A DNA stretch of 64,000 bases, from NCBI GenBank assembly GCA_964365185.1, contig CAYIOP010000002.1, positions 66,684 through 130,683 on the forward strand, given 5' to 3'. The notes below the pieces were generated by a model that was not told the DNA's origin, did no database searches, and worked only from the letters and a program-made list of their open reading frames with translations. A program made the position numbers and the translations under genes. The stretch comes from an uncultured Candidatus Saccharibacteria bacterium. GTDB taxonomy: Bacteria; Patescibacteriota; Minisyncoccia; UBA6257; 2-01-FULL-56-20. Every line of letters starts with the position of its first letter. The stretch's first letter is position 1. This document shows positions 3,206 through 24,859 of this stretch, one piece after another.

Positions 3206-4459
3206 CTACTCTCTGTTTTTTTGTAAAACCACTCCGGCAATAATTCCCAGCACAAACCAAAATATCCTCACCTGAAAAAAATTAAAAGGAGTTATGTTGG
3301 CCAAAAGCGCGACCCCGGCAATAAGCCAAGAAATTTTTATGTAATCCGCATTATCTTGGATCGCTTGTTCAGCCGTAATCTTTGCCGCTTTTACAAGTTT
3401 AATTATGAGTGTCACAAAAGCCGCAAGCGCCAAAACACCTCCATATACCACCAACTCTAAAAATGTGCCCGTAAATCCCGGGTATTGATCTTTAGCCGCT
3501 AAATCCACAAAACCGAACCCAAAAGGAAAACGATAAATTCCCGCCGCGCTTTCTAACCAAAAATTAATTCGGCTTTCATAATAAGGATCGGGAGTGGTTA
3601 CTAACTCTACTGCGCGTCTTGTTAAATACGAATATGTTTGGTTACGAGATACATTATAGGTATAGTTATTTCCAATTAAAAAATAACCGGCTATAAAAAT
3701 AGCGGCCGTAGCCGTTAGGAAAAATTTTAATTTGTTCCAATCCTTTTGTTTCCATAAAATAATTAATAATAAAATCACAACCAATACTATTGACAGCCAC
3801 GCTGTCCGCGCGCCGCTCCACAAAAGAAACGCCGCAATAAAAGAGAGCCAAGCGCCAAGAGCGATTTTTTTCCACGCCTTTATATTTTCAAAGATAAATC
3901 CCGCGCCCAGAACCAATGCTATTGAAGCCCAAGCCCCAAAAACAATGGGATTTTCTATTAGCCCTGATAATCTAGCCGCTGAAAAATATATTGCCTGATT
4001 AGTACTGATCGTAAGAAAATAAACCGGAATAATTAGGACAAACGAAACGACTATCGCCAGACCTATAAAACGCAGAATCCGCGGATTTCTATAAACCATG
4101 AGCGCCGCCAAAATAAATATCCCTAAGTTAAAAATCAATCGAAAATAATCCATCAGCACTTCTCGGGCTAAAGGATTCGCTCCGAAACGCGCGAAACTAA
4201 ATATTTGGCCAGCAACGATCAATATTGCTACTACCCCCAACCATTTTAAATAAGGAATTAGCTTAGCAAAATTTTGGCGTATAAAATTTCTAAAATCGCC
4301 GCTTAAGAATACGGCCATTGTCGCCAAAATTAGTATGATATCAGCTAAATGTAAAAAGGGAACCAACATCAATTTTTCTGTTCGCAAGCTAAGAAAAAAA
4401 GCAGCGACGAGAAATAAATATTCCGCTATTTTAGCGAAATTCAAACTGAGTTTATTCAT
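3206..4459 (-). CDS. polytopic membrane protein, O-antigen ligase/Wzy-polymerase-like
   Basis: 417 aa with at least 10 transmembrane segments and one larger loop. Located inside a glycan locus. No sharp motif, so the call is tentative. Confidence 0.3.
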   Translation of the reverse strand: MNKLSLNFAKIAEYLFLVAAFFLSLRTEKLMLVPFLHLADIILILATMAVFLSGDFRNFIRQNFAKLIPYLKWLGVVAILIVAGQIFSFARFGANPLAREVLMDYFRLIFNLGIFILAALMVYRNPRILRFIGLAIVVSFVLIIPVYFLTISTNQAIYFSAARLSGLIENPIVFGAWASIALVLGAGFIFENIKAWKKIALGAWLSFIAAFLLWSGARTAWLSIVLVVILLLIILWKQKDWNKLKFFLTATAAIFIAGYFLIGNNYTYNVSRNQTYSYLTRRAVELVTTPDPYYESRINFWLESAAGIYRFPFGFGFVDLAAKDQYPGFTGTFLELVVYGGVLALAAFVTLIIKLVKAAKITAEQAIQDNADYIKISWLIAGVALLANITPFNFFQVRIFWFVLGIIAGVVLQKNRE

Positions 4460-8759: not shown

Positions 8760-9698
8760 ATGGGGAAAAGCGCTCTCGTTTTTTCTTCCAGTGACGCCTA
8801 CGCCCTCCTTCTTGGGGTTGCTTTATGTTCAATTTTTGAAAATCGAAAAAGCTACCACCCTTTTGATGTTTTTGTCATTGACGGAGGAATATCAAGCCGC
8901 AACCAACAAAGGTTAAATGTACTTGAAAAAAGATATGGCTTTACTATCACCTATCTTGTTCCCGACAAACACTTCTTTGAAAATCTACTGGCTACCGAAT
9001 TGCCTCAAGCGGGGTATTATCTGCCAGTCGAAGTTTATTATCGTCTAGCCATTGGGCGTATTCTTCCTAAGGAATACAGTCGAGCACTCTACCTGGACTG
9101 CGATATCGTTGTAAAGGGCGATCTGGCCGAACTGCTTAATTTTGATTTAGAAGATAAAGTTTTGGGGGCCGTAGCCGATTGCTTTCAGGATTTAAGGGAG
9201 AAGCATTTAAAACGGCTCTGTCAAAATGTCGGTCTTACTGAAATACCAAAAAAGCTCGTGTACTTTAACTCCGGCATTCTACTTGTCGATCTAAATCTTT
9301 GGAGAAAAAAGGAAATTGAAACCAAGCTTTTTTCGTTTATCAGCAAGAATTCTCACAAACTCTGGGCAGCTGATCAAGACGCTTTAAACATTGTCTTACT
9401 CTATGATTTTAGACAGCTTCCAGATAAATATAATTTTATTGCCGAACAAGCTTCTGGTTATCAGGAATCTAATCCTTTCATCATTCATTTTGCCGGCGGA
9501 TCAAAACCCTGGTATTTTTTCTCAGCTCTGCCATATCAATCAGAATATCTTTATTACGCGAGCAAAACCCCGTGGAAAAATAGAAAATATAGAAAGCCCA
9601 TGGACATCTTTTTTGCCAAGAAATATCATATCTACCAGTTGATGTGGGGAGTATGGAGTGTTTATAAAAAAATAAAAAAATCTTTAGCCAAAATATGA
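8760..9698 (+). CDS. glycosyltransferase family 8 (LPS alpha-1,3-galactosyl/glucosyltransferase-like)
   Basis: YLDCDIVVKGDLAEL (DxD motif), NSGILLVDLNLWRK and HFAGGSKPW are typical GT8 motifs. The TGA stop overlaps the next ATG (ATGA). Confidence 0.7.
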   Translation: MGKSALVFSSSDAYALLLGVALCSIFENRKSYHPFDVFVIDGGISSRNQQRLNVLEKRYGFTITYLVPDKHFFENLLATELPQAGYYLPVEVYYRLAIGRILPKEYSRALYLDCDIVVKGDLAELLNFDLEDKVLGAVADCFQDLREKHLKRLCQNVGLTEIPKKLVYFNSGILLVDLNLWRKKEIETKLFSFISKNSHKLWAADQDALNIVLLYDFRQLPDKYNFIAEQASGYQESNPFIIHFAGGSKPWYFFSALPYQSEYLYYASKTPWKNRKYRKPMDIFFAKKYHIYQLMWGVWSVYKKIKKSLAKI

Positions 9699-10597
9699 AA
9701 ATTATTATCACCGGCGGCACCGGTTTTGTGGGTTCCAACTTAACTCTAGACCTTATTAAAAAAGGTCACACGGTTTTTATAACCGGCCGCGAAGCCGCCG
9801 AAGAACTTCAAAGTCCTCTCATCACTTATCTTGGTCCGGATTTTATTAATTTGTCTTGGGAAAAAATCGGGCCGATTGACGTTGTTTTCCACGAGGCCGC
9901 CTGTAACGACACTACTCTTCTGGACAAAGAAGAGATGTTTAAAGTAAATTTTGATTGGTCGCGACAGTTGTTTAAAGAAGCCCAAAACGCCGGCGTCAAA
10001 AAAATTATCTACGCCTCCTCAACCGCGGTCTATGGCAACACCCCGCCTCCTTTTAAAGAATCCGGTCCCTTTAAACCTTTAAATCCTTACGCCGAGTCCA
10101 AAAAACTCCTCGATGAATTTGCTGAAAAATTTATTAAGGAACATCCCGAGATGATTGTTGTCGGCCTTCGGTATTGCAATGTTTACGGCCCCGGAGAAGG
10201 CAAAAAAGGCAAGCGATCCACGCTTATCTATCAATTAGCTCGAATCATGCAAAAAGAGAATCCAAAAATTTTTAAAGATGGCGAGCAAAAAAGAGATTAT
10301 ATTTATATCAAAGACGTAGTTAGGGCCAATCTTTTATCTATGAACGCCACCGAGAGCGGCATTTATAACTGCGGCTTTGGCCAGGCCGTAAGTTTTAACG
10401 ACCTTATTAAAATCTTAAACGAGGTTTTGGGTTTGAATCGCAAACCCGAATATATCGATAATCCTTATATTGACCGCTATCAAAGTTTCACCGAGTGCGA
10501 TATGTCGCTTGCTAGCGAAAAACTGGGATTTATTCCCGAGTTTGATATTAAAAAAGGCATCCGCGACTATTTTGAAAGCGGCTTTTTAATCAATTAA
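9695..10597 (+). CDS. hldD: ADP-L-glycero-D-manno-heptose 6-epimerase
   Basis: Collinear similarity to E. coli HldD across three blocks: VFHEAACNDTT...IIYASSTAVYG, LRYCNVYGPGEGKKG and YIDNPYIDRYQSFTECD. Confidence 0.75.
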   Translation: MKIIITGGTGFVGSNLTLDLIKKGHTVFITGREAAEELQSPLITYLGPDFINLSWEKIGPIDVVFHEAACNDTTLLDKEEMFKVNFDWSRQLFKEAQNAGVKKIIYASSTAVYGNTPPPFKESGPFKPLNPYAESKKLLDEFAEKFIKEHPEMIVVGLRYCNVYGPGEGKKGKRSTLIYQLARIMQKENPKIFKDGEQKRDYIYIKDVVRANLLSMNATESGIYNCGFGQAVSFNDLIKILNEVLGLNRKPEYIDNPYIDRYQSFTECDMSLASEKLGFIPEFDIKKGIRDYFESGFLIN

Positions 10598-10613
10598 TTT
10601 TTTTGTCTATTCC

Positions 10614-11096
10614 TTAGAGATTTCTAATCTTCGCAATAACTTCTGTTGTTGACTTGCCTTTTGTAAGCGGCACTCTAACTAGTTTCGCGCCAATTTCTTT
10701 TAAGGTTGCTCGTTCGACAATTTGACTGGTTTTTCTATCCGCTCCTTTTACGTGAATGCTGGGTTTTATTAATTTCAGCCATTTCTCCGGCGTCCTATCT
10801 TTGAATATAAAAACATAATCCACCGCTCTTAAAGCCGCCACCACTTCCGCGCGTTCCGCTTGAGATACAATTGGCCGGCCCCTGCCTTTATTTTCCCGAA
10901 CCGAACTATCCGAGTTAACTCCCACAATTAAAACATCGCCGAAGCTTCCGGCTTTTTCTAAGTTTCTAACATGACCGATGTGTAAAATGTCAAAGCAGCC
11001 ATTGGTCGTTACTATTTTCTTGCCGGCTCGGCGCTTTCTTCTCGCTATCTTAGCGACCTCAGCCAAAGTTTTTATTTTTGATTTTGCGGCTTCCAT
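10614..11096 (-). CDS. hldC: D-beta-D-heptose 1-phosphate adenylyltransferase (stand-alone HldE domain II)
   Basis: KKIVTTNGCFDILHIGHVRNLEKA cytidylyltransferase HxGH motif and ...IHVKGAD end as in RfaE domain II. 160 aa. Confidence 0.7.
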   Translation of the reverse strand: MEAAKSKIKTLAEVAKIARRKRRAGKKIVTTNGCFDILHIGHVRNLEKAGSFGDVLIVGVNSDSSVRENKGRGRPIVSQAERAEVVAALRAVDYVFIFKDRTPEKWLKLIKPSIHVKGADRKTSQIVERATLKEIGAKLVRVPLTKGKSTTEVIAKIRNL

Positions 11097-11146
11097 AATT
11101 CCTTTTTTTGACTTAAGCTATTATATGTTAATTCAAGTCAAGGTTC

Positions 11147-11731
11147 ATGACTAGACCCGATAACTCACAGCTTATTTTAAATGCCTTTAAACGACACCTC
11201 GAAACAGTTAGTCGTTCCGAGGCCACGGTTTTAAATGAGGTCTCAAAAGCTTTCGCGATTCTTGAAGAGATTGTTAAAAATCGCCGCGTTCTTTTTATCT
11301 GTGGCAATGGTGGTTCGGCCGCGCAAAGCCAACACTTTGCTGCTGAATGGGTCTGTCGCTATAAAAAAGAAAGGCCAGCCCTTAAAGCCATTGCCCTAAC
11401 CACCGACACCTCGGCCCTAACCGCCATCGGCAATGACTATGGTTTTGAAAATATCTTTGCCCGCCAAGTTGAGGCCCTAGCCTCTAAAGACGACTGCCTG
11501 GTTGTTATTTCAACCAGCGGCCGGTCGCCTAATATCTTAAAAGCCATTGATAAAGCCAAAACCATTGGGTTAAAAACCATTGCTTTAAGCGGCCAAAAAG
11601 GCGCGGCGCTTAAAAATCTGGTTGATGTCGCTATCTTAGTTCCATCCGATGAGACCGCCCGCATCCAAGAAGTTCACGATTTAATTCTACATGCTTGGTG
11701 CGAGGCGATTGATGAAAATTTCACCTCTTAA
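11147..11731 (+). CDS. gmhA: D-sedoheptulose 7-phosphate isomerase
   Basis: LFICGNGGSAAQSQHFAAEW is the canonical GmhA SIS motif. 194 aa. Confidence 0.8.
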   Translation: MTRPDNSQLILNAFKRHLETVSRSEATVLNEVSKAFAILEEIVKNRRVLFICGNGGSAAQSQHFAAEWVCRYKKERPALKAIALTTDTSALTAIGNDYGFENIFARQVEALASKDDCLVVISTSGRSPNILKAIDKAKTIGLKTIALSGQKGAALKNLVDVAILVPSDETARIQEVHDLILHAWCEAIDENFTS

Positions 11732-11740
11732 TTTTTATTT

Positions 11741-12709
11741 ATGGATATTTTAAAAACCATCAAGGAGTTTAATCAGAAGAAAATTCTAGTGGTCGGCGAC
11801 ATTATGTTAGACCATTATTTAAAAGGCGGTGTTTCTCGCATTTCGCCCGAAGCGCCTGTGCCAGTATTGGCGAAATCTTCCGAAAGTTATGCCTTGGGCG
11901 GCGCCGGCAATGTGGCCGCTAATATCGCTTCTTTAAAAGGCCGGGTTACTCTTTTAGGCGTTACCGGCGATGATCCCGAGTCAGGAATTATCAAAAAAAT
12001 TTGCGCTGGCCTAAAAATAACTCCGCGGCTTATCATTGAAAAGAAAAGGCCCACCACCCTTAAAACCCGGGTTGTCTCCGGCCGCCATCAACTTTTAAGA
12101 ATCGACACCGAAACCACTGCCCGCCCCAAAACCCAAACCGAAAATGAACTTATTAAAACCATTAACCGCTTACCCAATTTTAATATTATTGTAATTTCCG
12201 ATTATGCCAAAGGTTGCTTAACTAAGAAAGTTTTTACGGCGCTTAAAAATCGTTTTAAAAATGTTCAAATTATCGCGGATATAAAACCATCTCAAGCCAA
12301 TCTCTACTCAAATGTTTTCCTAATTACACCCAATCTTAAAGAAACTTACGACTTAACCGGTTTAAACGCCCAAGAACCTAAGTCAGCTGAAAAATCCGCT
12401 AAACTTTTATCCGACCGTTTTTCTTCTTCGGTTATTATCACTCGCGGAGAGCACGGGCTCACGCTCTACGAAAAAGAAACAAAAAAAATCACCCATATCC
12501 CGTCGCATACTATCCATATTTTTGACGTAACCGGCGCCGGAGATACTGTTGTTGCCGTTTTAGCTTTGATGGTTGCTTTAGGCGAAGACCTTAAAATTTC
12601 TGCCCGAGTGGCCAATTTGGCCGCTGGTCTGGTTGTGAGCGAAGAGGGAACCGCCACTCTCTCTCCGCAAGTTTTAATCGCTGCTCTTAAAAATCGCCGT
12701 GTTTTCTAA
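11741..12709 (+). CDS. hldA: D-beta-D-heptose 7-phosphate kinase (stand-alone HldE domain I)
   Basis: ILVVGDIMLDHYLKGGVSRISPEAPVPVL is the RfaE domain I ribokinase-like signature. C-terminal DVTGAGD motif. Confidence 0.8.
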   Translation: MDILKTIKEFNQKKILVVGDIMLDHYLKGGVSRISPEAPVPVLAKSSESYALGGAGNVAANIASLKGRVTLLGVTGDDPESGIIKKICAGLKITPRLIIEKKRPTTLKTRVVSGRHQLLRIDTETTARPKTQTENELIKTINRLPNFNIIVISDYAKGCLTKKVFTALKNRFKNVQIIADIKPSQANLYSNVFLITPNLKETYDLTGLNAQEPKSAEKSAKLLSDRFSSSVIITRGEHGLTLYEKETKKITHIPSHTIHIFDVTGAGDTVVAVLALMVALGEDLKISARVANLAAGLVVSEEGTATLSPQVLIAALKNRRVF

Positions 12710-15023
12710 TTTCCTTAAACATTTCATCAAAGTTAGATTTGTCGGTTTTCTCCGGTCCCTCTTTTTATTTTTAATCAACCCACGGACTAATCAAAAAAAT
12801 TGGGAGGAGCGCCTGCTTCTTATCAATCTTCAAGGCATCGGCGATCTTGTTGTTTTTACTTCGGTCTTGAAACATTATCACCAAGCTTTCCCTAGTAAAA
12901 AAATCTATCTTCTTATTAAAGAAGACACTGGTCTTAAAAAAGCGTTATCCGCAGTCGGGCAATGCGAAGTTATCACTCTTAACTATCGTCGCTTCACCAC
13001 CGACCCTTTTTATGGTTTTTCTCTAATTTCAAAATTGAAGCAGATTGGTTTTGAAACTGTTTTAAATCATGATTTCAGCGCCGCCGAAATTATGGGTAAA
13101 TTTATCGCCGTCGGGCTTGGCGCTAAACAAGTTATCGGTTATGAGGGCATGGCTCTTGAATTTATCGCGCCCTTTAATCTTCAGCAACGTCTCAATATCC
13201 GCTACGCAATCAATCATCTTTTTCCCAGATTCACCGATCTTATCCCGCGCATTGATTATCGGTACGATCTTTTAGAGCGACTCCCAGGAGCAATTAGTCA
13301 TTACCTTGCTATCTTTGAGCACGCCTCTAAGCGAAAAGAAAATGACTATTCAACTTTTTTGCCATCTCCTTCGTCGCTTGAAAATCTCAATCTTCGTCTG
13401 CCTCCAAAACCCTACGCGGTTTTTAATCTTTCTGCTTCTAATACCTACAAACGTTGGCCTATAGAAAATTTCGCGGGCCTAGCCCAAAGCCTAAAAGCCA
13501 AAAACTTTGAAATTGTTTTAATTGGTCTAACTGAAAGCCAAAATCTGGGCCAGGAGTTTAAAAATAATTTCTCCGGAGAAGTTTTTAATTTAATCGGGCA
13601 AACGTCTTTAAACGATTTGATTTATGTTATTAGTCATTCATCCCTGGTTGTCTCAAACGACACTTCTTCCGTTCACATTGCCGTGGCGCTAAAAAAATCA
13701 TCTCTTTGCTTAACGGGTGGCGGGCAGTTTGGGATGTTTGCCGATTACGGCTATCAAAATTTAAACCATTGGGTTTATAAAAAAACCAATTGCTTCTGCG
13801 ATAATTGGCGCTGCGGAAAAAATCTTGAAAATCAGTCCGCGCCTTGTGTCTCCGCCATCACTCTTGATGAAGCCGAGCAAAAATTACAATCACTTCTCTC
13901 TGAAATTCAAAATCCCAATCCCGATTCTTTTTTGTTTAAAACCAGTTTTGCCCCGCCGCCGGTTAAAAGCGGAAAATTTAAAATTATTTTTTCAGGGATT
14001 CAATTCGAGAATTATAACTTTGGACGAAAAAGTTTTGAATATAGCAACTTTCTTTTGACCCTAAGAGCTATGCCCAATTTGGAAGCGTTGTTCTATCCTT
14101 TTGATTTTATTCTTCAAATGGGAAAAAAGAAATTCAACGAACGCCTGCTCGATTTAGTTCGGCGCGAAAAACCCGACCTTTTTTTCGCGTTTATGTATAC
14201 CGATGAACTGGATGTAAAAACGCTCTCTGAAATTAAAAAATTAACTAAGAGTGTTGCTTGGTTTGCCGACGATCACTGGCGACTTGATAACTATTCCCGT
14301 CTCTACGCTCCTTATTTTACTAAAGCGATTACAACCTGGAGTAAAGGTATCGAAAATTATAAACGCTACGGCATTGAGAACATCCTTCGCTCGCAGTGGG
14401 CGTGCAATCACTTTGTTTGGCATCCCGCCGCAGTTTCTAATCAGGATATCGATGTTAGTTTTGTGGGGCAGTATAATCCGGCTCGCGGGGAAATTATAAG
14501 AAAACTTCGGTCTTTAGGCGTTAATGTTTGGGTTCGTGGTTGGGGTTGGCCCGAAGGCCGCCTCCAGGGTGGCGACATGGTTCAGGCCTTTAGTCAGAGC
14601 AAAATTAACCTCAATTTTAACACGCCGCCTAGCCGCTTAACGCCTAAATTATTAGCCCGCCTTTTCTTTAGGCGTTCTCTAAATAGAATTCGTCCGAGCT
14701 GGCGCTTCGCCAGTAATTTTCGCTCCTGGCTTAATATTTCTATCCCTCAAATCAAAGCCCGCCCTTTTGAAGTTGTCGGCTGCCAGGCCTTTCTTATATC
14801 AGCTTTTGCCGATGATGTTCACAGTTACTATGAAGATAAGAAAGAAATTGTCTATTACCGCGATATTCCCGACTTGGTTCAAAAAATCCAGTTCTATCTT
14901 AAAAATCCTGAACTTAGAAAAAAAATCGCTGAAGACGGATACAGGCGCACTCTCAAAGAACATACCTATACAAAAAGATTCACTGAAATTTTTGAAAAAG
15001 TCGGATTTAAATACCACGCCTAA
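12699..15023 (+). CDS. two-domain glycosyltransferase: N-terminal GT9 heptosyltransferase fused to C-terminal CgeB-like (DUF3880/GT1-like) domain
   Basis: N-terminal ERLLLINLQGIGDLVVFTSVLKHY and LVVSNDTSSVHIAVAL are GT9 hallmarks. The C-terminal region (VWVRGWGWPEGRLQGGDMVQAFSQSKINLNFN ... KEHTYTKRFTEIF) resembles CgeB-family glycosyltransferases. The only in-frame start is GTG at 12699, overlapping the hldA stop. Confidence 0.6.
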   Translation: MFSNFLKHFIKVRFVGFLRSLFLFLINPRTNQKNWEERLLLINLQGIGDLVVFTSVLKHYHQAFPSKKIYLLIKEDTGLKKALSAVGQCEVITLNYRRFTTDPFYGFSLISKLKQIGFETVLNHDFSAAEIMGKFIAVGLGAKQVIGYEGMALEFIAPFNLQQRLNIRYAINHLFPRFTDLIPRIDYRYDLLERLPGAISHYLAIFEHASKRKENDYSTFLPSPSSLENLNLRLPPKPYAVFNLSASNTYKRWPIENFAGLAQSLKAKNFEIVLIGLTESQNLGQEFKNNFSGEVFNLIGQTSLNDLIYVISHSSLVVSNDTSSVHIAVALKKSSLCLTGGGQFGMFADYGYQNLNHWVYKKTNCFCDNWRCGKNLENQSAPCVSAITLDEAEQKLQSLLSEIQNPNPDSFLFKTSFAPPPVKSGKFKIIFSGIQFENYNFGRKSFEYSNFLLTLRAMPNLEALFYPFDFILQMGKKKFNERLLDLVRREKPDLFFAFMYTDELDVKTLSEIKKLTKSVAWFADDHWRLDNYSRLYAPYFTKAITTWSKGIENYKRYGIENILRSQWACNHFVWHPAAVSNQDIDVSFVGQYNPARGEIIRKLRSLGVNVWVRGWGWPEGRLQGGDMVQAFSQSKINLNFNTPPSRLTPKLLARLFFRRSLNRIRPSWRFASNFRSWLNISIPQIKARPFEVVGCQAFLISAFADDVHSYYEDKKEIVYYRDIPDLVQKIQFYLKNPELRKKIAEDGYRRTLKEHTYTKRFTEIFEKVGFKYHA

Positions 15024-16031
15024 ATGATTTCTAAACTCGTCTCAATTATTATTCCGGCTTGGAACGCTGAAAAATATATTAAAGAAGCGATTGATTCAGC
15101 CCTAAATCAAACCCATCCCAATACAGAAGTGATTGTTGTAAACGACGGCTCAACCGATGGAACTGAATCAATTCTGAAATCTTATCAAAATCCCAAGCTT
15201 CGCTATTTTAATCAAGAGAATCAAGGTTTGGCTGGAGCTAGAAATACTGGCATCAAAAATTCTCAAGGTGAGTATATTGCCCTTCTAGACAGCGATGATA
15301 TTTTTCTGCCGAGCAAAGTCGAGCGCCAAGCCGAAATTTTAGAAGATAATCCCGACTACGGCATTTGCTATTCCGACCTTCTGCACTTTAACGACCCGCC
15401 TGACCCAGCCCGCTTCGAGTCGCGAAGCGAATCTGGCGGGTCGCCTAGTGGAACATGGCGGGCAGGCGAAAGCCACAGAAAATTTTTTCATCACCGCTAC
15501 CGCTATCCATCTGGCGATATTTTTGGTGAGATTATTCATCGGCAATTCATTAATCCTTTAGCTGTGATGATTCGCCGCGGAATCTTCAATCAGTTTGGGC
15601 TCTTTGACCAAAATCTCCGGCGCTCCGAGGACTGGGAGCTTTGGTTGCGTTTAGCCAAAAATGGAGTTAAATTTTATTACTTAAACGAAGTTTTAGCCCA
15701 CTATCGCGTCCGCTCGATTGGCAACTTAAGTTCTCTAGAATCCGAGCCGGAAATGAAAGAAAAAAATCTGGAAATTTTCACTCGCCTTGCGGCATCTTTA
15801 ACTTTGCTTCAAAAAAAGCAATACCGTTTCTATAAAATTTTAAAAAAGTTAAGATTAAAAGTGGTCTTTGCCAGCTTAATTGTCGGCGACCGAAAAAAAG
15901 CGCTTTTCTTTGTTCGAGAACTTTCCCCCTCTTGGAAATTTTTAGTCAGTGTTTTACCGGTTGCCTTCTGGAAATTTTTTCTTAGATTCATAAGAAAAAT
16001 CAAACATCGTCTTCTGCTAAAAAAAATGTAA
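15024..16031 (+). CDS. glycosyltransferase family 2
   Basis: VSIIIPAWNAEKYIKEAIDSALNQTHPNTEVIVVNDGSTDGT and LDSDD motifs. It contains a GC-rich in-frame segment around 15395-15500 (see findings). Confidence 0.75.
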   Translation: MISKLVSIIIPAWNAEKYIKEAIDSALNQTHPNTEVIVVNDGSTDGTESILKSYQNPKLRYFNQENQGLAGARNTGIKNSQGEYIALLDSDDIFLPSKVERQAEILEDNPDYGICYSDLLHFNDPPDPARFESRSESGGSPSGTWRAGESHRKFFHHRYRYPSGDIFGEIIHRQFINPLAVMIRRGIFNQFGLFDQNLRRSEDWELWLRLAKNGVKFYYLNEVLAHYRVRSIGNLSSLESEPEMKEKNLEIFTRLAASLTLLQKKQYRFYKILKKLRLKVVFASLIVGDRKKALFFVRELSPSWKFLVSVLPVAFWKFFLRFIRKIKHRLLLKKM

Positions 16032-16041
16032 TATTCTTCTA

Positions 16042-17019
16042 ATGCACCACCTCCTTTCGCTTAAAAACCAAACCCGAGAAGAACTTAAAGCAATTTTAGA
16101 TTTAGCCGGAAAAATCAAACAAGAGTACCGTCTTAAAAAACTTACTCCTTATCTGGCTGGTCAAACTCTAATTATGCTTTTTCAAAAGACCTCCACGCGC
16201 ACCCGACTTTCTTTTGAAGCCGGAATGACCGAACTTGGCGGGCATGCCATCTTTCTCGACTCTCGTACCACTCAGCTCGGCTTGTCGGATTTTGCTGATG
16301 AAATCCGAGCGATTATGAGAATGGGGGATATTTTGATGTTTCGGGCCTTGCGGGCCGCGGATGTCGAACTCGCCGCCTCAATGAATGTTATTCCTGTTAT
16401 TGATGCTTGTAGCGAAAAATATCATCCCTGCCAAGCTCTGGGCGATATTCTGACAATGTCTGAAATAGCTGGGGGGTTGGATAAAATCCGTAAAGTTGTT
16501 TGGTTGGGAATCGAAAATAATGTCTCCAATACCTTAATGCTCGCTTGCGCCAAACTCGGCATCGAAATTTTCATTGTTGCTCCCGAAAGGCATGCGGCCA
16601 GTCGCGATGAGGAACTTATTAGTCAAGCTGAAAGCACTGGTAAAGTTCATCGCACTTTGGATTTAGAATTCGCTCTTGATGGAGCTGATTTTGTGCATAC
16701 GGATACCTGGATGGATATGGAATTTTTTTCCACCGAAGGTGGATCGGCCTCTGGCGGGGAAAATAGCCAGGTTCGTCCGGAATTTAAACAAGAATACGAG
16801 CGCCGGATAAAAATTTTTTCTCCTTTTCAACTTAACCAAAAACTATTGCTTAAATACGCTCCTCGAGCAAAAATTATGCATTGTATGCCTTGCCACATTG
16901 GCTATGAAATTACCAGAGACGCCATAGACAGTCCTAATTCAGTAATTTTTGATCAAGCCGAAAATCGCAAGCATATCCAAAAAGGAATTCTCCTTTGGCT
17001 TCTCGGTCGTAGCCGTTAA
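16042..17019 (+). CDS. aspartate/ornithine carbamoyltransferase-family protein (OTC-like)
   Basis: STRTRLSFEAGMTELGG carbamoyl-phosphate binding motif, HCMPCH (compare the OTC HCLPA motif) and a VIFDQAENRKH C-terminal block. It carries an inserted EGGSASGGEN peptide. Confidence 0.6.
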   Translation: MHHLLSLKNQTREELKAILDLAGKIKQEYRLKKLTPYLAGQTLIMLFQKTSTRTRLSFEAGMTELGGHAIFLDSRTTQLGLSDFADEIRAIMRMGDILMFRALRAADVELAASMNVIPVIDACSEKYHPCQALGDILTMSEIAGGLDKIRKVVWLGIENNVSNTLMLACAKLGIEIFIVAPERHAASRDEELISQAESTGKVHRTLDLEFALDGADFVHTDTWMDMEFFSTEGGSASGGENSQVRPEFKQEYERRIKIFSPFQLNQKLLLKYAPRAKIMHCMPCHIGYEITRDAIDSPNSVIFDQAENRKHIQKGILLWLLGRSR

Positions 17020-17064
17020 CGCTTTTGTTATTCTTCGAAATTCTTTATTCTTAATTCTAACCGT

Positions 17065-18879: not shown

Positions 18880-19297
18880 AATGCTGTCTAAAGAAATAAA
18901 AAATATTAGTAGCACCAAGAAAGACCTCCGCAATTTCAGTTTAGTTATCGGCGGAGTTTTAGTTGTCCTTAGTTTATGGTGGCTAACTCACCAGCGATCA
19001 AGCTGGTTATGGCCTGCCCTTTTAGGATTACTAATTATTGCCGCCGGCTTTATTGTTCCATCTTTACTAAAACCCCTTCAGAAGACCTGGATGATTCTAG
19101 CGGTTCTAATGGGTTGGATTATGACTAAGGTTATACTTTTTATTGCCTTCTTTATGATTTTTATGCCCATCAACTTGATATTAAAAATTCTAAAAAAGAA
19201 AATTTTCGATTTCGGCATAAAATCAGATCAAAAAAGTTACTGGATTCCTCGCGACCAGCCAGAATTTTCAAAGGCCAGTCTCGAGAAACAATTTTAA
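18866..19297 (+). CDS. SxtJ-like small membrane protein
   Basis: 143 aa with 3 transmembrane segments, immediately downstream of and overlapping the carbamoyltransferase. The carbamoyltransferase, SxtJ, DUF5989 trio is a recurrent arrangement. Confidence 0.4.
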   Translation: MSLIKMLSKEIKNISSTKKDLRNFSLVIGGVLVVLSLWWLTHQRSSWLWPALLGLLIIAAGFIVPSLLKPLQKTWMILAVLMGWIMTKVILFIAFFMIFMPINLILKILKKKIFDFGIKSDQKSYWIPRDQPEFSKASLEKQF

Positions 19298-20713: not shown

Positions 20714-21817
20714 ATGAAAAAAGTACTCATCACCGGAGGGGCCGGATTCATCGGCAGCCATACCGCCGATGCCCTAAAAAAACTTAGGTATAAAATAAAA
20801 ATCCTCGACAATCTCGCCCCACCCACCCATAAGACACCAAAATGGCCCGCCTATGTTTTAGGCAAGGGCTATGAACTTATTAAGGGCGATGTCTGCGATC
20901 GCCGGGTTGTATCGAGAGCCCTCCAAGGAGTTGATTTTATCTTTCATTTCGCGGCCTACCAAGACCAAAGGAATGACTTCTCTCATTTTTTTAAAATTAA
21001 TACCTTAAGTTCCGCCTTGCTCTATGAGCTTATCACTGAGAAAAAATTCCCGGTTAAAAAAATAATTCTGGCTAGCACTCAGTTTGTTTATGGCGATGGC
21101 AAATATTTATGTTCCCGCTCTAAAAAAGAATTTTTTCCCGAACCCCGCGCTTTGTCGGCACTAAAAAAAGGGGACTGGTCTATTAAATGTCCCAACGGCC
21201 ACCCTGCCACTTTTTTGAAATTTGAAGAAGATCAAAAACTCACCCCCACCAATTCCTACGGTCTCTCCAAGCAAGCCATGGAAAATTTGGCTCTTCGCTT
21301 TGGCAAAACCCATGGCCTTTCCACTACCATCCTTCGTTATTCTATAGTCCAGGGTCCACGACAATCTCCGCATAATCTTTATTCCGGCGCTATGCGGATT
21401 TTTGTAAGCCAAGCCCTGGCCAGCGTTCCACTGACTGTTTATGAAGATGGCCTAGAAACCAGAGATTTTGTAAATATTGAAGATGTCGTCCGAGCCAATC
21501 TCCTTACCCTTAAAAACCCAAAAACAAATTTTCAGATATTGAATGTTGGCGGTGGTCGCGGCTATCGAGTGATTGATTTTGCCAAACTTATTAAAAAAAT
21601 TAGCCGCTCCTCTTCGTCGATTCTAGTCGGCTCTTTCCGTCGTACTGATACTCGCCACGCCGTCTCTGATATCTCTAAAATAAAAAAATTGGGCTGGTCT
21701 CCCCGACGTGGAATTGATTATTCAATTAAAACTTATCTTGAGTGGTTTACTGATAATGGTTTCGATAAAAAACTTCATTCTCAAGACCTCGTTAAACTCC
21801 AAGAAGGCATAAAATAA
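20714..21817 (+). CDS. NAD-dependent epimerase/dehydratase-family protein with Cys-containing insertion
   Basis: MKKVLITGGAGFIGSH Rossmann motif and SDR fold. An insertion ...KYLCSRSKKEFF...WSIKCPNGHP... separates the YGDG and YxxxK regions. Confidence 0.55.
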   Translation: MKKVLITGGAGFIGSHTADALKKLRYKIKILDNLAPPTHKTPKWPAYVLGKGYELIKGDVCDRRVVSRALQGVDFIFHFAAYQDQRNDFSHFFKINTLSSALLYELITEKKFPVKKIILASTQFVYGDGKYLCSRSKKEFFPEPRALSALKKGDWSIKCPNGHPATFLKFEEDQKLTPTNSYGLSKQAMENLALRFGKTHGLSTTILRYSIVQGPRQSPHNLYSGAMRIFVSQALASVPLTVYEDGLETRDFVNIEDVVRANLLTLKNPKTNFQILNVGGGRGYRVIDFAKLIKKISRSSSSILVGSFRRTDTRHAVSDISKIKKLGWSPRRGIDYSIKTYLEWFTDNGFDKKLHSQDLVKLQEGIK

Positions 21818-21867
21818 TAAGCTAATTTTATTGACTTATTGGTCGGCTTGTTTTAATCTACCTAAAC

Positions 21868-22890
21868 ATGATTGTTGTTCGCGCTCCCTTAAGAATTAGC
21901 TTTGTTGGCGGCGGCACCGACCTCCCCGATTTTTATCATCAGCGTCCTGGCCGCGTTATTTCAACCGCCATCGACAAGTTTGTCTATGTGGTAGTCAATC
22001 GTACCCCCATGATCGATAAAGTCGTGGCGCGTTATTCTATTACTGAATCAGTCAGCCACCCCAGCGAACTCGAGCACACCCGCATCAAAGCTGCTCTAAC
22101 GGATTTGGGCATTCACAAAAATATTGAAATTTCTTCTTTCGCCACCATGCCCTCTAAAACTGGTCTTGGTTCCTCCTCCAGTTTTTCAGTGGCTTTAATC
22201 AAGGCCCTAAACGCTTTTCAAGGTAAAAAAATTGATGCTCGCGAAGCCGCTGAAGCTGCTAGTCGTCTTGAGATTGAATTGGTAGGTGAGCCTATTGGCA
22301 AACAAGATCAATACGCTGCTTCCTTAGGCGGTTTTAATGTGATTCAGTTTAATCCCGATGAATCAGTTGATGTCTCCCCGGTTTTAATTGATTATAAAAA
22401 ACGTTTGGCTTTAGAGAGTAGCATCCTTTTGTTTTTTACGGGCATCACTCGCTCTACTTCTTCGGTTCTAACCGAGCAAAAAGCCAATATCGACAGTAAG
22501 TTTGGGACTCTCTCTGAGATGGCGGATTCGGTTCCGGAATTTAGCAACCTTGTTCTTGAAGGCGATATTCCGGCTATGGGTGCCATGCTTCATCAGGGTT
22601 GGTTAAAGAAAAAAAGCTTAGCGTCTAATTTATCTAATTCTTTAATTGATGATCTTTATAATTCTGGAATTTCCTCTGGCGCTTATGGCGGCAAGATTTT
22701 GGGCGCTGGCGGCGGTGGCTGTATTCTATTTTTAAGCCCTCAGGATAAAAAAGATTCTATTCGCGAAGCAGTCAAAACCGTGGCCGAAAAAAATAATCTT
22801 GTCGGTTTTCGCGAGATTCCAGTTGAATTTGTTCAAAGTGGCGCCGAAGTTTTATATAACGGTGATCATTTCCATTCTCATTTTTCGTAA
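21868..22890 (+). CDS. hddA: D-glycero-alpha-D-manno-heptose 7-phosphate kinase (GHMP kinase)
   Basis: MIVVRAPLRISFVGGGTDLPDFY N-terminus is characteristic of HddA-type GHMP kinases, plus the GLGSSSS ATP-binding motif. Confidence 0.65.
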   Translation: MIVVRAPLRISFVGGGTDLPDFYHQRPGRVISTAIDKFVYVVVNRTPMIDKVVARYSITESVSHPSELEHTRIKAALTDLGIHKNIEISSFATMPSKTGLGSSSSFSVALIKALNAFQGKKIDAREAAEAASRLEIELVGEPIGKQDQYAASLGGFNVIQFNPDESVDVSPVLIDYKKRLALESSILLFFTGITRSTSSVLTEQKANIDSKFGTLSEMADSVPEFSNLVLEGDIPAMGAMLHQGWLKKKSLASNLSNSLIDDLYNSGISSGAYGGKILGAGGGGCILFLSPQDKKDSIREAVKTVAEKNNLVGFREIPVEFVQSGAEVLYNGDHFHSHFS

Positions 22891-22894
22891 AATT

Positions 22895-23500
22895 ATGAAA
22901 ACTCACATCGAAGATTTTAAAAACAAAGTTGATCTGGCTTTAAAAGCCCTGCCCACCGAAGAAATTGCCAAGGCCTTGAATATTCTGGAAGCTGTTTATG
23001 AACGGGATGGCCGCATCTATGTTTTTGGCAACGGCGGCTCTTTGGCCATCGCCACCCATTGGGTGAGCGATTTTAATAAAACCGTTTTCAGCCATCATTT
23101 AGATAAGCATCATCGTCGCTTTCAAGCTATTCGCGTGCCGACCACCGAGGAAGAATTAACCGCTTGGGCCAACGATGCTGGTTTTGATATGGTTTTTGCC
23201 GGCCCCCTTGAAAACTACTTGCAAGATCCGGATGTCGTAATTGCCATCTCTAGCTCCGGCGCTTCCCCGAATGTTATTAAAGCTGTCGAGCTTGCCCGAA
23301 GTCGCAAAGTTCCTGTTATTGGGATTTCTGGTTTTGGCTCTGATAATCAGTTAAATCAACTCGCCACCGTCAAGATTCATGTCCCGGCTGAAAAAGGGGA
23401 ATATGAAATTGTTGAAGGCGTTCACGGGATTATCCTGCATCTCATGACTAAATATTTCAAAGATTATTTCGATCACATAGTAGCCAAGTCAGAAAACTAA
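22895..23500 (+). CDS. gmhA: SIS-domain phosphoheptose isomerase (second GmhA paralog)
   Basis: YVFGNGGSLAIATHWVSDF SIS motif. ATG at 22895 is chosen because the listed ORF start at 22799 would overlap hddA. Confidence 0.6.
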   Translation: MKTHIEDFKNKVDLALKALPTEEIAKALNILEAVYERDGRIYVFGNGGSLAIATHWVSDFNKTVFSHHLDKHHRRFQAIRVPTTEEELTAWANDAGFDMVFAGPLENYLQDPDVVIAISSSGASPNVIKAVELARSRKVPVIGISGFGSDNQLNQLATVKIHVPAEKGEYEIVEGVHGIILHLMTKYFKDYFDHIVAKSEN

Positions 23501-24051
23501 TGAAAGCAGTTTTCTTAGATCGTGACGGGACTATTAATAAGGAAGTTAACCTCCTAAGAAATCTAAAACAGCTGAAAATCCTTCCCAAAGCCGCCGAAGC
23601 CATCAGGAAAATCAACCAACTTGGTTTTCTGGTGGTTGTGATTACTAATCAAGCTGTGGTGGCCCGCGGCTGGCTAACTGAAAAAGGCGTGGATGAAATT
23701 CACGCTGTTTTAATAAAGCGCCTGGCAAAAAAAGGCGCCAAAATTGATGCTATCTATTACTGCCCGCACCATCCCGAAGCTAATTTTAAAAAATATCGCG
23801 TTAAATGTCGCTGCCGCAAACCGAATCTTGGTATGATTTTAAAAGCCGCCAAAAAGTTCAAAATTAATTTTAAAAAAAGTTTTATGGTCGGCGACCACAC
23901 CCGCGACATTTTAACCGGCCATCGCGCTAGCCTCAAAACCATTTTAGTTAAAACTGGCTACGCTGGCAAAGATGGCTACCACGACATAAAGCCCGATTTC
24001 ACAGCCAAGAATCTTTTTGAAGCTGTAAAAATTATCAAACGTAATTCTTAA
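23500..24051 (+). CDS. gmhB: D-glycero-D-manno-heptose 1,7-bisphosphate phosphatase (HAD IIIA)
   Basis: VFLDRDGTIN HAD motif I and the GmhB zinc-binding C-x-H-x...C-x-C motif (YYCPHHPEANFKKYRVKCRCRKPNLGMI). Confidence 0.8.
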   Translation: MKAVFLDRDGTINKEVNLLRNLKQLKILPKAAEAIRKINQLGFLVVVITNQAVVARGWLTEKGVDEIHAVLIKRLAKKGAKIDAIYYCPHHPEANFKKYRVKCRCRKPNLGMILKAAKKFKINFKKSFMVGDHTRDILTGHRASLKTILVKTGYAGKDGYHDIKPDFTAKNLFEAVKIIKRNS

Positions 24052-24111
24052 TTCCTATTTCGTAATTCATAATTCGTCACTCATGATTCATAATTCATCA
24101 CTCATTAATCA
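24042..24111. repeat. heptamer-periodic array (TAATTCN units x about 10) spanning the gmhB stop and hddC start
   Basis: taattct taattcc tatttcg taattca taattcg tcactca tgattca taattca tcactca ttaatca. Confidence 0.6.
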
Positions 24112-24859
24112 AGCCATCCTTCTCTCCGCCGGCCTAGGCACTCGTCTCCGTGATATTACCAAAGGCGAAATTCCAAAAGTTATGGTCCCGCTTCTTGGTA
24201 AGCCGCTTTTGGAGTGGCACCTTGAGGCTTTCAAAAAATACGGCGTGAGTGATTTTTTCATCAATCTTCATTATCTCCCCGAAGTTATTAAAAATTATTT
24301 TGGCGACGGCTCTAAATGGGGAGTTAAAATTCAATACAATTTCGAACCAGAAATCATGGGTACCGCGGGCGGTATCAAAGGTTTCTCCGCTGAAGGCGGA
24401 TCCGCCTCTGGCGGAGAAAACCAGCTCGCTGATAATTTTTTTGTCATCTACGCCGACACCTTTTATCAAATCAATTATAATCGCATTGCCGACCTTTATT
24501 TTTCACTTGAAAACCCGATTGGTTTAGGCACTGTGAGAATCACCGATCACCCCGAGGATTCTGATTTGGCTATCGTCGGAGAAAACAACGAAGTCAAAGA
24601 ATTTCTAATTAAACCGCATAAAAAACTCCCCGAAAAAAGTTTTTATGGCACTTCTGCTCCCTATATCTTTTCCAAAAAAATTCTGGAATATATTCCAGAA
24701 AATAAATATTACGAAATTGATCATAATCTTGTGCCGGATCTCTTAGCTCGTGGCTTTAAATATTACGCTTATAAATTAAAAAGCGATGAATTCCGAAAAG
24801 ACATTGGCACTGCCGATCGCTACCATTTTGTTGAAAATTATCTGAAAAATTTAAAATAA
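24083..24859 (+). CDS. hddC: D-glycero-alpha-D-manno-heptose 1-phosphate guanylyltransferase-like sugar nucleotidyltransferase
   Basis: AILLSAGLGTRLRDIT nucleotidyltransferase motif and GTAGGI. Position after gmhB as in GDP-heptose clusters. It carries the inserted EGGSASGGEN peptide. Confidence 0.6.
   Translation: MIHNSSLINQAILLSAGLGTRLRDITKGEIPKVMVPLLGKPLLEWHLEAFKKYGVSDFFINLHYLPEVIKNYFGDGSKWGVKIQYNFEPEIMGTAGGIKGFSAEGGSASGGENQLADNFFVIYADTFYQINYNRIADLYFSLENPIGLGTVRITDHPEDSDLAIVGENNEVKEFLIKPHKKLPEKSFYGTSAPYIFSKKILEYIPENKYYEIDHNLVPDLLARGFKYYAYKLKSDEFRKDIGTADRYHFVENYLKNLK

What the first reader, a model, noticed from the sequence alone, without database searches (positions are those of the whole stretch)
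12699..15023. Fusion of a GT9 heptosyltransferase with a CgeB-like glycosyltransferase domain in one 774-aa protein
Seen: the N-terminal 400 aa carry GT9 motifs (LINLQGIGDLVVFTSVL, VVSNDTSSVHIAVAL). The C-terminal 340 aa carry CgeB/DUF3880-type motifs (GWGWPEG...INLNFN...FEVVGCQAF...KEHTYTKRF). The only in-frame start is a GTG overlapping the hldA stop. Inference: a bifunctional enzyme that adds a heptose and a second sugar in sequence. Such a fusion is not a standard architecture I recognise.
Basis: partly seen in the sequence, partly recalled or inferred. Interest (0 to 1): 0.55.

Follow-up and report, generated by a model that had tools for sequence, protein, structure and literature searches.

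The report
Fused heptosyltransferase–CgeB-like glycosyltransferase in Patescibacteria
A real 774-residue protein in an ultra-small groundwater bacterium joins two neighbouring sugar-adding enzymes of a heptose-glycan gene cluster; relatives carry the same pair fused or as separate genes, so it is a modest variant of a common theme.

Summary
ORF 12699-15023 (+, GTG start, 774 aa) carries a GT9 domain (Pfam 8.6e-23) and a complete CgeB-like GT-B domain (PF13524, 2.2e-27).

It is not an assembly artefact. Two replicate metagenome assemblies carry identical DNA. More than 24 homologues at 45-62% identity, from independent Patescibacteria MAGs, have the same architecture, with catalytic residues conserved in both halves.

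Relatives also carry the two halves as adjacent separate genes. In one case only TAG-AAC-ATG separates them. A bootstrapped tree needs at least 4 fused/split transitions.

Two modules meet at the junction:
- hldD-hldC-gmhA-hldA-GT9, the ADP-heptose module. HldA is found with GT9 in 13 of 16 loci and in 0 of 25 loci without GT9.
- CgeB-like-GT2-SDR-GHMP kinase-GmhA-GmhB-nucleotidyltransferase, a GDP-heptose-type module that also occurs without GT9.

The window also holds a phosphoglycosyl transferase, Wzx and a Wzy_C protein.

Most likely this is a bifunctional cytoplasmic glycosyltransferase extending a lipid-linked heptose-containing surface glycan. The GT9 half would use ADP-heptose. The donor of the second half is unknown; NDP-heptose is a hypothesis. 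Whether the two steps are consecutive is not shown.

This is a new variant of a known kind, of modest interest.

The parts
12699..15023 (+). Whole fused gene, 774 aa. The GTG start overlaps the hldA stop by 11 nt. The stop codon at 15021-15023 abuts the ATG of the next GT2 gene at 15024.
   Evidence: The exact protein and identical DNA occur in two replicate assemblies.
12699..12776 (+). N-terminal hydrophobic and basic helix (aa 1-26), absent from WaaC and WaaF. Conserved in fused and stand-alone members of this GT9 subfamily. Possibly a membrane-association or packing helix (inference).
   Evidence: AF2 model gives helix 2-26 with pLDDT 83-89. Alignments. Hydrophobic moment.
12810..13913 (+). 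GT9 (heptosyltransferase-type) GT-B domain, about aa 38-405. It carries G48-D49 (= WaaC D13), K251 (= K192), D321 (= D261) and H326.
   Evidence: Pfam PF01075 E 8.6e-23. Foldseek hits WaaF 1psw at E 1e-13 with TM 0.75, then 3tov and WaaC. Residue correspondence from HMMER alignments. Conservation.
13791..13847 (+). Invariant C365-x2-D368-x3-C372-x10-C383 cluster at the end of the GT9 C-lobe. A possible metal-binding knuckle (untested).
   Evidence: Invariant in 31 fused and stand-alone sequences down to 27% identity. The TibC iron finger is compared.
13914..13976 (+). Variable linker (about aa 406-426). It corresponds to the GT9 C-terminal tail plus the former intergenic spacer.
   Evidence: Variable length and sequence in A1 columns ~420-460. 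Lower pLDDT of 73-82. Split junctions in L001 and L015.
13977..15008 (+). CgeB-like (PF13524) complete GT-B glycosyltransferase domain, aa 427-770. Invariant residues include G590, R596, R688, F690 and E691.
   Evidence: Pfam E 2.2e-27. AF2 model with pLDDT 96.3 and pTM 0.92. Foldseek top hits are GT4 enzymes: PimB', ManT, GlgM, MshA, BshA. 46-65% identity to stand-alone 345-350 aa proteins.
9695..12709 (.). ADP-heptose module directly upstream: hldD-like epimerase 9695-10597 (+), hldC-like adenylyltransferase 10614-11096 (-), gmhA 11147-11731 (+), hldA kinase 11741-12709 (+).
   Evidence: Pfam. NCBIfam best hits lie just under the cutoffs: 249/275, 177/181.5, 208/276 and 329/345 bits. Synteny across loci.
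15024..16031 (+). GT2 glycosyltransferase immediately downstream. It is the usual partner of the CgeB-like gene and is fused to it in other organisms.
   Evidence: A GT2 gene lies downstream of the CgeB-like gene in 26 of 41 loci.
20714..24859 (+). Second, GDP-heptose-type module: SDR epimerase/dehydratase 20714-21817, GHMP (HddA-like) kinase 21868-22890, second GmhA 22799-23500, GmhB 23500-24051, HddC-like nucleotidyltransferase 24083-24859.
   Evidence: Conserved downstream of the CgeB-like gene with or without GT9.
3206..4459 (-). Wzy_C-family protein: a polymerase, ligase or O-oligosaccharyltransferase type.
29215..30714 (-). Wzx-type flippase (Polysacc_synt).
34126..35463 (-). Bac_transf initiating phosphoglycosyl transferase.

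Best explanation
The gene encodes a genuine two-enzyme polypeptide of a Patescibacteria (CPR) surface-glycan locus. The N-terminal half is a GT9 GT-B enzyme. It most likely transfers heptose from ADP-L-glycero-beta-D-manno-heptose, which is made by the genes immediately upstream and translationally coupled to it. The C-terminal half is a complete, GT4-like (CgeB-type, PF13524) GT-B glycosyltransferase that adds another sugar to the same growing chain. Both halves probably act at the cytoplasmic face of the membrane on a polyprenyl-diphosphate-linked oligosaccharide. That oligosaccharide would be started by the Bac_transf enzyme, extended together with the adjacent GT2 and GT8 enzymes, flipped by Wzx and handled by the Wzy_C protein. 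The fusion arose by loss of the stop codon and short spacer between two tightly packed neighbouring genes, where an ADP-heptose/GT9 module abuts a CgeB-like/GT2/NDP-heptose module. Shown here: the ORF, both domains, conservation of catalytic residues, synteny, and fused and split relatives. Inferred: donors, acceptor, membrane location and any coupling of the two steps.
For: The ORF is real. Identical DNA occurs in two replicate assemblies plus the MAG contig. Twenty-four full-length homologues at 45-62% identity have invariant residues in both halves.

The GT9 assignment is supported by Pfam, by fold matches to WaaF and WaaC, and by conservation of D49, K251 and D321, which align with WaaC D13, K192 and D261.

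The ADP-heptose donor is supported by synteny. HldA is found in 13 of 16 loci that have the GT9 gene and in 0 of 25 loci that lack it. The gene order HldD-HldC-GmhA-HldA-GT9 is constant, and the neighbours are identified by NCBIfam.

The C-terminal half is a full GT-B. The model has pLDDT 96 and its top structural hits are GT4 enzymes. The R596 and R688-x-F-E691 motifs are invariant in 61 sequences.

Fused and split forms both occur. L001, L006, L015, L025 and L036 carry adjacent separate genes with their own ATG. At least 4 fused/split transitions are needed in 200 of 200 bootstrap trees.

Wzx, Wzy_C and a phosphoglycosyl transferase are present in the window.

In the window no Met lies at the start of the second domain. 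F427 replaces the stand-alone Met, so here the second enzyme can only be made as part of the fusion.
Against: There is no biochemical evidence for either activity. GT9 also contains non-heptose transferases (CAZy knowledge). NCBIfam HepI/II/III models score far below their cutoffs, at 63 bits against 135-185. The second Glu of the GT4 EX7E motif is absent (L699), and Pfam Glycos_transf_1 is below threshold. The CgeB-like gene is present without GT9 in most related loci (25 of 41). In L029 and L034 the two genes are separated by other genes, so consecutive action is not required. The acceptor is unknown. The lack of LPS in this genome is assumed from general knowledge of CPR and was not tested on the 64-kb window.
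Confidence: 0.62

Rival explanations
1. The fusion is an evolutionarily neutral by-product of tight gene packing. A stop codon is lost between two co-transcribed genes. The two enzymes work in the same pathway but at non-consecutive steps, and fusion brings no channelling or obligate partnership.
For: Fused and split states flip repeatedly: at least 4 transitions. In L015 only TAG-AAC-ATG separates the genes, in the same frame. The CgeB-like gene occurs without GT9 in 25 of 41 loci. The genes are separated by another gene in L029 and by about 2.7 kb in L034. The linker is variable.
Against: The GT9 gene, when present, nearly always lies directly upstream of the CgeB-like gene. Fused forms persist over 45-62% divergence with both halves conserved. 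The full-length AF2 model has pTM 0.72, which hints weakly at a defined relative arrangement of the two halves.
Confidence: 0.3
2. One half is catalytically inactive and serves as a scaffold or acceptor-binding module for the other.
For: The canonical second Glu of the GT4 EX7E motif is missing. Scores against the Glycos_transf_1 and HepI/II/III models are weak.
Against: Catalytic and donor-binding residues of GT9 (D49, K251, D321, H326) and conserved Arg/Glu motifs of the CgeB-like half are invariant or nearly so across fused and stand-alone homologues. The stand-alone forms are abundant as independent enzymes.
Confidence: 0.08
3. The GT9 half is a protein O-heptosyltransferase of the TibC/AAH (BAHT) type. 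It would decorate a surface protein directly, and the second domain would extend the protein-linked heptose.
For: An invariant Cys/Asp cluster lies at the end of the C-lobe, in roughly the position of the TibC four-Cys iron finger. TibC appears among the Foldseek hits at E ~6e-7. CgeB itself is proposed to glycosylate a protein.
Against: WaaF and WaaC match much better (E 1e-13, TM 0.75). There is no N-terminal beta-barrel: the model has a helix followed by a Rossmann fold. The Cys spacing differs, and only three Cys are invariant. phmmer finds no TibC match at E<=1. The locus has the hallmarks of lipid-linked assembly: a phosphoglycosyl transferase, Wzx and Wzy_C.
Confidence: 0.07
4. The fused ORF is an assembly or sequencing artefact: a frameshift or chimera joining two genes.
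For: Related fused genes with frameshifts exist (L005/L024 and L016), so errors or pseudogenes do occur in this family.
Against: Two independent replicate assemblies carry identical DNA over 3.4-4.3 kb. Twenty-four homologous fused ORFs come from other samples. There is no start codon for a separate second gene in the window.
Confidence: 0.01

Closest known systems
LPS inner-core heptosyltransferases WaaC (HepI) and WaaF (HepII), CAZy GT9
   Same: GT-B fold (Foldseek E 1e-13 to 1e-10, TM 0.7-0.78). A Pfam PF01075 match. A catalytic Asp in the N-terminal G-D loop. Lys and Asp residues that contact ADP-heptose are conserved. Genes for ADP-L,D-heptose synthesis lie alongside.
   Different: Only 15-18% identity, and far below the NCBIfam equivalog cutoffs. 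It has an extra N-terminal helix, a Cys/Asp cluster and a fused second enzyme. The host is a Patescibacterium, a group generally held to lack LPS and an outer membrane, so the acceptor cannot be Kdo2-lipid A. The locus is of the Wzx/Wzy type.
CgeB-type glycosyltransferases (Pfam PF13524 Glyco_trans_1_2; B. subtilis spore-crust CgeB)
   Same: PF13524 match well above cutoff. JGI labels close stand-alone homologues 'spore maturation protein CgeB'. Predicted two-lobed GT-B with a C-terminal helical tail, as modelled for CgeB.
   Different: DUF3880 is below threshold. No direct comparison with the B. subtilis CgeB sequence was made. CgeB is proposed to act on a protein (CgeA Thr112) with a UDP-sugar (PMC13577073). 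Here the context is a lipid-linked glycan locus with heptose-nucleotide genes.
Retaining GT4 GT-B enzymes (PimB', ManT, MshA, BshA, PglA)
   Same: Best structural matches of the C-terminal half (E 4e-11 to 1e-8, TM ~0.6). An Arg after the first strand of the C-lobe and a Glu in the position of the first Glu of EX7E.
   Different: About 10% identity. Glycos_transf_1 is below the Pfam cutoff. The second Glu of EX7E is replaced by Leu. The stereochemical outcome is unknown.
Multidomain polysaccharide glycosyltransferases (for example the A. pleuropneumoniae capsule multienzyme 8qoy; CgeB-like-GT2, CgeB-like-GT4 and CgeB-like-TPR fusions)
   Same: Several glycan-building catalytic modules on one polypeptide. 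The same CgeB-like module is fused to GT2 (either order), GT4 or TPR domains in other organisms.
   Different: The partner here is GT9. Among the 150 best hits in 1.84 billion representatives, that pairing was seen only in one 50%-identity cluster plus one frameshifted member.
TibC/AAH autotransporter heptosyltransferases (BAHT)
   Same: An ADP-heptose-dependent GT-B related to GT9, with a Cys-based metal finger inserted near the end of the C-lobe.
   Different: No beta-barrel, different Cys spacing, weaker structural match, and no sequence match.

Membership tests
GT9 (Pfam PF01075, heptosyltransferase family) | Profile match above the curated threshold | tested here: met
   81.4 bits against a cutoff of 22, E 8.6e-23, aa 132-348
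GT9 (Pfam PF01075, heptosyltransferase family) | GT-B fold superposable on WaaC/WaaF | tested here: met
   Foldseek hits 1psw at E 1.1e-13 (TMt 0.75), 3tov at TMt 0.78 and WaaC at TMt 0.70-0.73. Model pLDDT 88.
GT9 (Pfam PF01075, heptosyltransferase family) | Catalytic Asp (WaaC D13) and ADP-heptose-contacting Lys192 and Asp261 | tested here: met
   HMMER alignments place D49, K251 and D321 at these positions. G48-D49 is invariant, and K251, D321 and H326 are invariant or nearly so.
GT9 (Pfam PF01075, heptosyltransferase family) | Uses ADP-heptose as donor | not testable with these tools
   Only indirect support. HldA co-occurs with GT9 in 13 of 16 loci and in 0 of 25 loci without GT9. hldA and the fusion gene overlap by 11 nt.
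LPS heptosyltransferase I/II/III equivalogs (NCBIfam TIGR02193/02195/02201) | Score above the equivalog cutoff | tested here: not met
   63.1 against 185.3, 62.7 against 134.6 and 52.4 against 170.2 bits
CgeB-like glycosyltransferase (Pfam PF13524 Glyco_trans_1_2) | Profile match above the curated threshold | tested here: met
   96.2 bits against a cutoff of 25, E 2.2e-27
CgeB-like glycosyltransferase (Pfam PF13524 Glyco_trans_1_2) | N-terminal DUF3880 region | tested here: not met
   14.5 bits against a cutoff of 25.2, E 0.042
CgeB-like glycosyltransferase (Pfam PF13524 Glyco_trans_1_2) | Detectable similarity to B. subtilis CgeB itself | not tested
The only link is the JGI label on close homologues.
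GT4 (retaining GT-B, Pfam Glycos_transf_1) | Profile match and EX7E motif | tested here: not met
   Glycos_transf_1 scores 12.6 bits against 26.4. E691 is present, but position +8 is Leu. Fold similarity only.
BAHT (TibC/AAH protein heptosyltransferases) | N-terminal beta-barrel, beta-hairpin thumb and four-Cys iron finger | tested here: not met
   The model starts with a helix and then a Rossmann fold. Three invariant Cys plus Asp have different spacing. No sequence match at E<=1.
Genuine gene fusion (Rosetta-stone type) rather than artefact | Same fused ORF in independent assemblies, plus orthologous split pairs in relatives | tested here: met
   Identical DNA in two replicate assemblies. 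Ten fused and five adjacent split loci among species representatives. Junction sequences.

The most novel reading that the evidence does not exclude
The protein is a dual-donor heptosyltransferase. The GT9 half would use ADP-beta-L,D-heptose (inverting). The GT4-like half would use the GDP/NDP-alpha-heptose made by the second pathway of the same locus. Together they would build a heptose-rich hetero-glycan on a polyprenyl carrier. A Wzy_C/PglL-like enzyme would then transfer that glycan to pili or S-layer proteins of LPS-less ultra-small bacteria. This would give GT9 and ADP-heptose a role outside LPS in the CPR.
Probability: 0.2. Interest if true: 0.55.

Novelty: new variant of a known kind. 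Interest (0 to 1): 0.33.

Why it matters
It shows that ADP-heptose and a GT9 enzyme, classically tied to the LPS inner core, belong to a conserved Wzx/Wzy-type glycan locus in Patescibacteria. These organisms are thought to lack an outer membrane, and their surface chemistry is essentially unknown.

The fused and split pair functionally links a poorly characterised glycosyltransferase family (CgeB-like, PF13524) to heptose glycan synthesis. It also gives a natural two-enzyme construct for biochemical work.

The practical value is modest. It offers an annotation improvement ('bifunctional GT9/CgeB-like glycosyltransferase' instead of 'glycosyltransferase') and a lead for CPR surface-glycan studies.

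Tried and rejected
- The first bootstrap script timed out. It was redone with a fast distance routine.
- Literature searches found nothing on this architecture. The terms tried were heptosyltransferase + Patescibacteria, CgeB + heptose, and bifunctional/GT9/fusion. The one relevant statement found is that ADP-L,D-heptose synthesis is encoded in Paceibacteria (PMC9166423).
- A BAHT/TibC relationship was considered because of the Cys cluster. It was rejected on fold, on sequence and on the missing beta-barrel.
- An assembly artefact was rejected.
- Independent translation of the second domain from an internal start was rejected for the window, because F427 sits at the position of the stand-alone Met.
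- The N-terminal helix was examined for amphipathicity. It is only weakly amphipathic beyond the first 11 residues and is not a clear transmembrane segment, so membrane anchoring remains an inference.
The geometry of the Cys cluster and the inter-domain interface could not be checked.
Full report
**Observation.** The ORF at 12699-15023 (+) exists as described: 774 codons from a GTG. In its frame the nearest upstream stop is TAA at 12675-12677. No ATG, GTG or TTG lies between that stop and the GTG. The upstream PfkB-type kinase gene ends at 12709, so the two genes overlap by 11 nt. The stop codon of the ORF (15021-15023) directly abuts the ATG of a GT2 gene at 15024. Pfam gives Glyco_transf_9 (aa 132-348, E 8.6e-23) and Glyco_trans_1_2 (aa 669-765, E 2.2e-27). 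DUF3880 is sub-threshold. NCBIfam models for heptosyltransferases I, II and III hit at about 1e-17 but far below their equivalog cutoffs.

**Is the fusion real?** Yes.
- The exact 774-aa protein is in the public collection.
- It is encoded, with identical DNA across 3.4-4.3 kb, on contigs of two replicate assemblies named Hain_H43_01um_R1 and R2.
- Twenty-four full-length homologues (766-794 aa, 45-62% identity) from other Patescibacteria/Parcubacteria MAGs have the same two Pfam domains.
- In their alignment both halves carry many invariant residues, while the segment between them varies in length and sequence.
- In the window no Met lies at the start of the second half. F427 occupies the position of the initiator Met of stand-alone homologues.

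**Fused or split in relatives?** Both.
- In L001 the order is PfkB kinase, GT9 (431 aa), a stop, a 45-nt spacer, then an ATG-initiated CgeB-like gene (351 aa), then GT2. The CgeB-like protein is 46% identical to aa 429-769 of the window protein.
- L006 has the same split arrangement, with a CgeB-like protein 65% identical to the window's second half.
- In L015 the two genes are in the same frame and separated only by TAG-AAC-ATG. L025 and L036 are also true splits with their own ATG.
- In L029 a 242-aa ORF lies between the two genes.
- L005/L024 and L016 are fused genes broken by frameshifts.
- Among 41 Patescibacteria loci from species-representative genomes that carry the CgeB-like orthologue, 10 are fused, 5 have GT9 upstream of the CgeB-like gene as a separate ORF (four directly adjacent; in L029 one ORF intervenes), 2 have GT9 nearby, and the rest have no GT9 within 6 kb.
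- In a search of 1.84 billion 50%-identity representatives, only one cluster representative (P0004) and the frameshifted P0025 span both halves among the 150 best hits. Stand-alone GT9 proteins (~420-435 aa) and CgeB-like proteins (~345-360 aa) are numerous.
- Domain trees interleave fused and split forms congruently. A concatenated NJ tree with 200 bootstraps groups split L001 with fused P0024 (98%) and split L025 with a fused clade (100%). It requires 4-6 fused/split transitions in every replicate.
- The fusion is thus a labile, recurrent event between neighbours. It is not an artefact and not a single ancient invention.

**The N-terminal half.** The full-length AlphaFold model (pLDDT 88.3, pTM 0.72) matches WaaF (1psw, E 1e-13, TM 0.75), a Veillonella GT9 (3tov) and WaaC best. 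HMMER alignments to WaaC and WaaF place D49 at WaaC D13, K251 at K192 and D321 at D261. G48-D49 is invariant, and the others are invariant or nearly so in fused and stand-alone members. Two features are specific to this subfamily:
- a conserved hydrophobic and basic N-terminal helix (aa 1-26);
- an invariant C365-x2-D368-x3-C372-x10-C383 cluster.

The cluster recalls the four-Cys iron finger of TibC (Cys339, 342, 358 and 370; PMC4358343). However, the spacing differs, TibC's beta-barrel is absent, and TibC is a much weaker structural match. I do not file the domain under BAHT.

**The C-terminal half.** Modelled with 60 stand-alone homologues, it gives pLDDT 96.3 and pTM 0.92. It is a complete two-lobed GT-B. 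The best PDB matches are retaining GT4 enzymes: PimB' with GDP-Man, ManT, GlgM, MshA, BshA and PglA, at E 4e-11 to 1e-8, TM about 0.6 and about 10% identity. Invariant G590/R596 and R688-x-F690-E691 occupy the positions of the diphosphate-binding Arg and the first Glu of EX7E. The second Glu is Leu. No solved structure of this family was found by sequence. The family's namesake, CgeB of B. subtilis, is only a putative glycosyltransferase with weak in vitro activity on CgeA (PMC13577073). Elsewhere the same module is fused to GT2 (in either order), GT4 or TPR domains.

**Context.**
- Upstream lies an ADP-heptose set. NCBIfam gives HldD-like epimerase (249 of 275 bits), HldC (177 of 181.5), GmhA (208 of 276) and HldA (329 of 345).
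- Downstream lie GT2, an OTCase-like protein, a NodU/CmcH carbamoyltransferase, SxtJ-like and GDSL proteins.
- Next comes a second, GDP-heptose-type set: an SDR, a GHMP kinase (best hit HddA), a second GmhA, GmhB (166 of 178 bits) and an HddC-like nucleotidyltransferase.
- The wider window holds methyltransferases, GT8, a further GT2, a Wzy_C protein, a Wzx flippase and a Bac_transf phosphoglycosyl transferase.
- Across loci, the block CgeB-like-GT2-SDR-GHMP kinase-GmhA-(GmhB)-nucleotidyltransferase recurs with or without GT9. The block HldD-HldC(-)-GmhA-HldA-GT9, when present, sits directly upstream.
- HldA is present in 13 of 16 loci with GT9 and in 0 of 25 without it.
- ADP-L,D-heptose synthesis in Paceibacteria has been noted before (PMC9166423).

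**Mechanism proposed.** The protein is a bifunctional cytoplasmic glycosyltransferase that extends a polyprenyl-PP-linked oligosaccharide of a heptose-containing surface glycan. The GT9 half transfers heptose from ADP-heptose. This is well supported by residues and synteny but not demonstrated. The CgeB-like half adds another sugar. Its tight linkage to the second heptose-nucleotide pathway makes NDP-heptose a reasonable but unproven donor. The order of the two steps, and whether they are consecutive, is unknown. The frequent occurrence of the CgeB-like gene without GT9, together with the repeated fusion and fission, argues that fusion is facilitated by gene packing rather than required for function.

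**Comparison and novelty.** Each half belongs to a known family, and multi-domain glycan glycosyltransferases are common. The GT9/CgeB-like pairing appears restricted to a narrow set of Patescibacteria and is undescribed in the searched literature. Public records call these proteins simply 'glycosyltransferase'. I rate it a new variant of a known kind, with modest interest. The more interesting aspect is the surrounding biology: GT9 and two heptose-nucleotide pathways in a Wzx/Wzy-type locus of bacteria thought to lack LPS.

Noticed in passing
window 13791-13847 (aa 365-383): An invariant C-x2-D-x3-C-x10-C cluster with flanking invariant Trp lies at the end of the GT9 C-lobe. It is conserved in 31 fused and stand-alone sequences down to 27% identity. 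It may be a metal-binding knuckle, loosely analogous to the TibC iron finger.
   Followed up: partly
window 9695-12709 and 20714-24859: Two separate heptose-nucleotide pathways lie in one locus. One is the ADP-L,D-heptose type (HldD, HldC, GmhA, HldA). The other is a GDP-heptose type (SDR, HddA-like GHMP kinase, second GmhA, GmhB, HddC-like transferase).
   Followed up: partly
window 16042-19297; also L005 4450-7421: An OTCase-like protein, a NodU/CmcH-type carbamoyltransferase and an SxtJ-like small protein sit inside the glycan locus, with DUF5989 as well in L005. This suggests a carbamoylated sugar. The SxtI/J/K-like trio is unexpected in a CPR genome.
   Followed up: no
L006 10939-12339: A bAvd-like gene and a reverse transcriptase (RVT_1), which are parts of a diversity-generating retroelement, are inserted between the SDR and GHMP-kinase genes of the orthologous glycan locus.
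   Followed up: no
L015 3320-3340: The GT9 and CgeB-like genes are in the same reading frame and separated only by TAG-AAC-ATG. A one-nucleotide change would create the fusion.
   Followed up: yes
L005/L024 (11764-11863 region of L005) and L016 667-946: Two orthologous fused genes are interrupted by frameshifts. These are either sequencing errors or decaying genes.
   Followed up: partly
L003 1-5874: ATP-sulfurylase, APS kinase, a sulfatase and a phosphodiesterase lie next to the orthologous locus. This hints at sulfated glycans in that lineage.
   Followed up: no
window 21868-23500: The mechanically listed start (TTG at 22799) of the second GmhA ORF overlaps the GHMP-kinase gene by 92 nt. The true start is probably further downstream.
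   Followed up: no
window 3206-4459 (-); L006 558-2873: Wzy_C-domain proteins lie in these loci, one of them fused to TPR repeats in L006. The domain is shared by O-antigen polymerases and ligases and by PglL-type protein O-oligosaccharyltransferases, so the glycan could end up on a protein.
   Followed up: no
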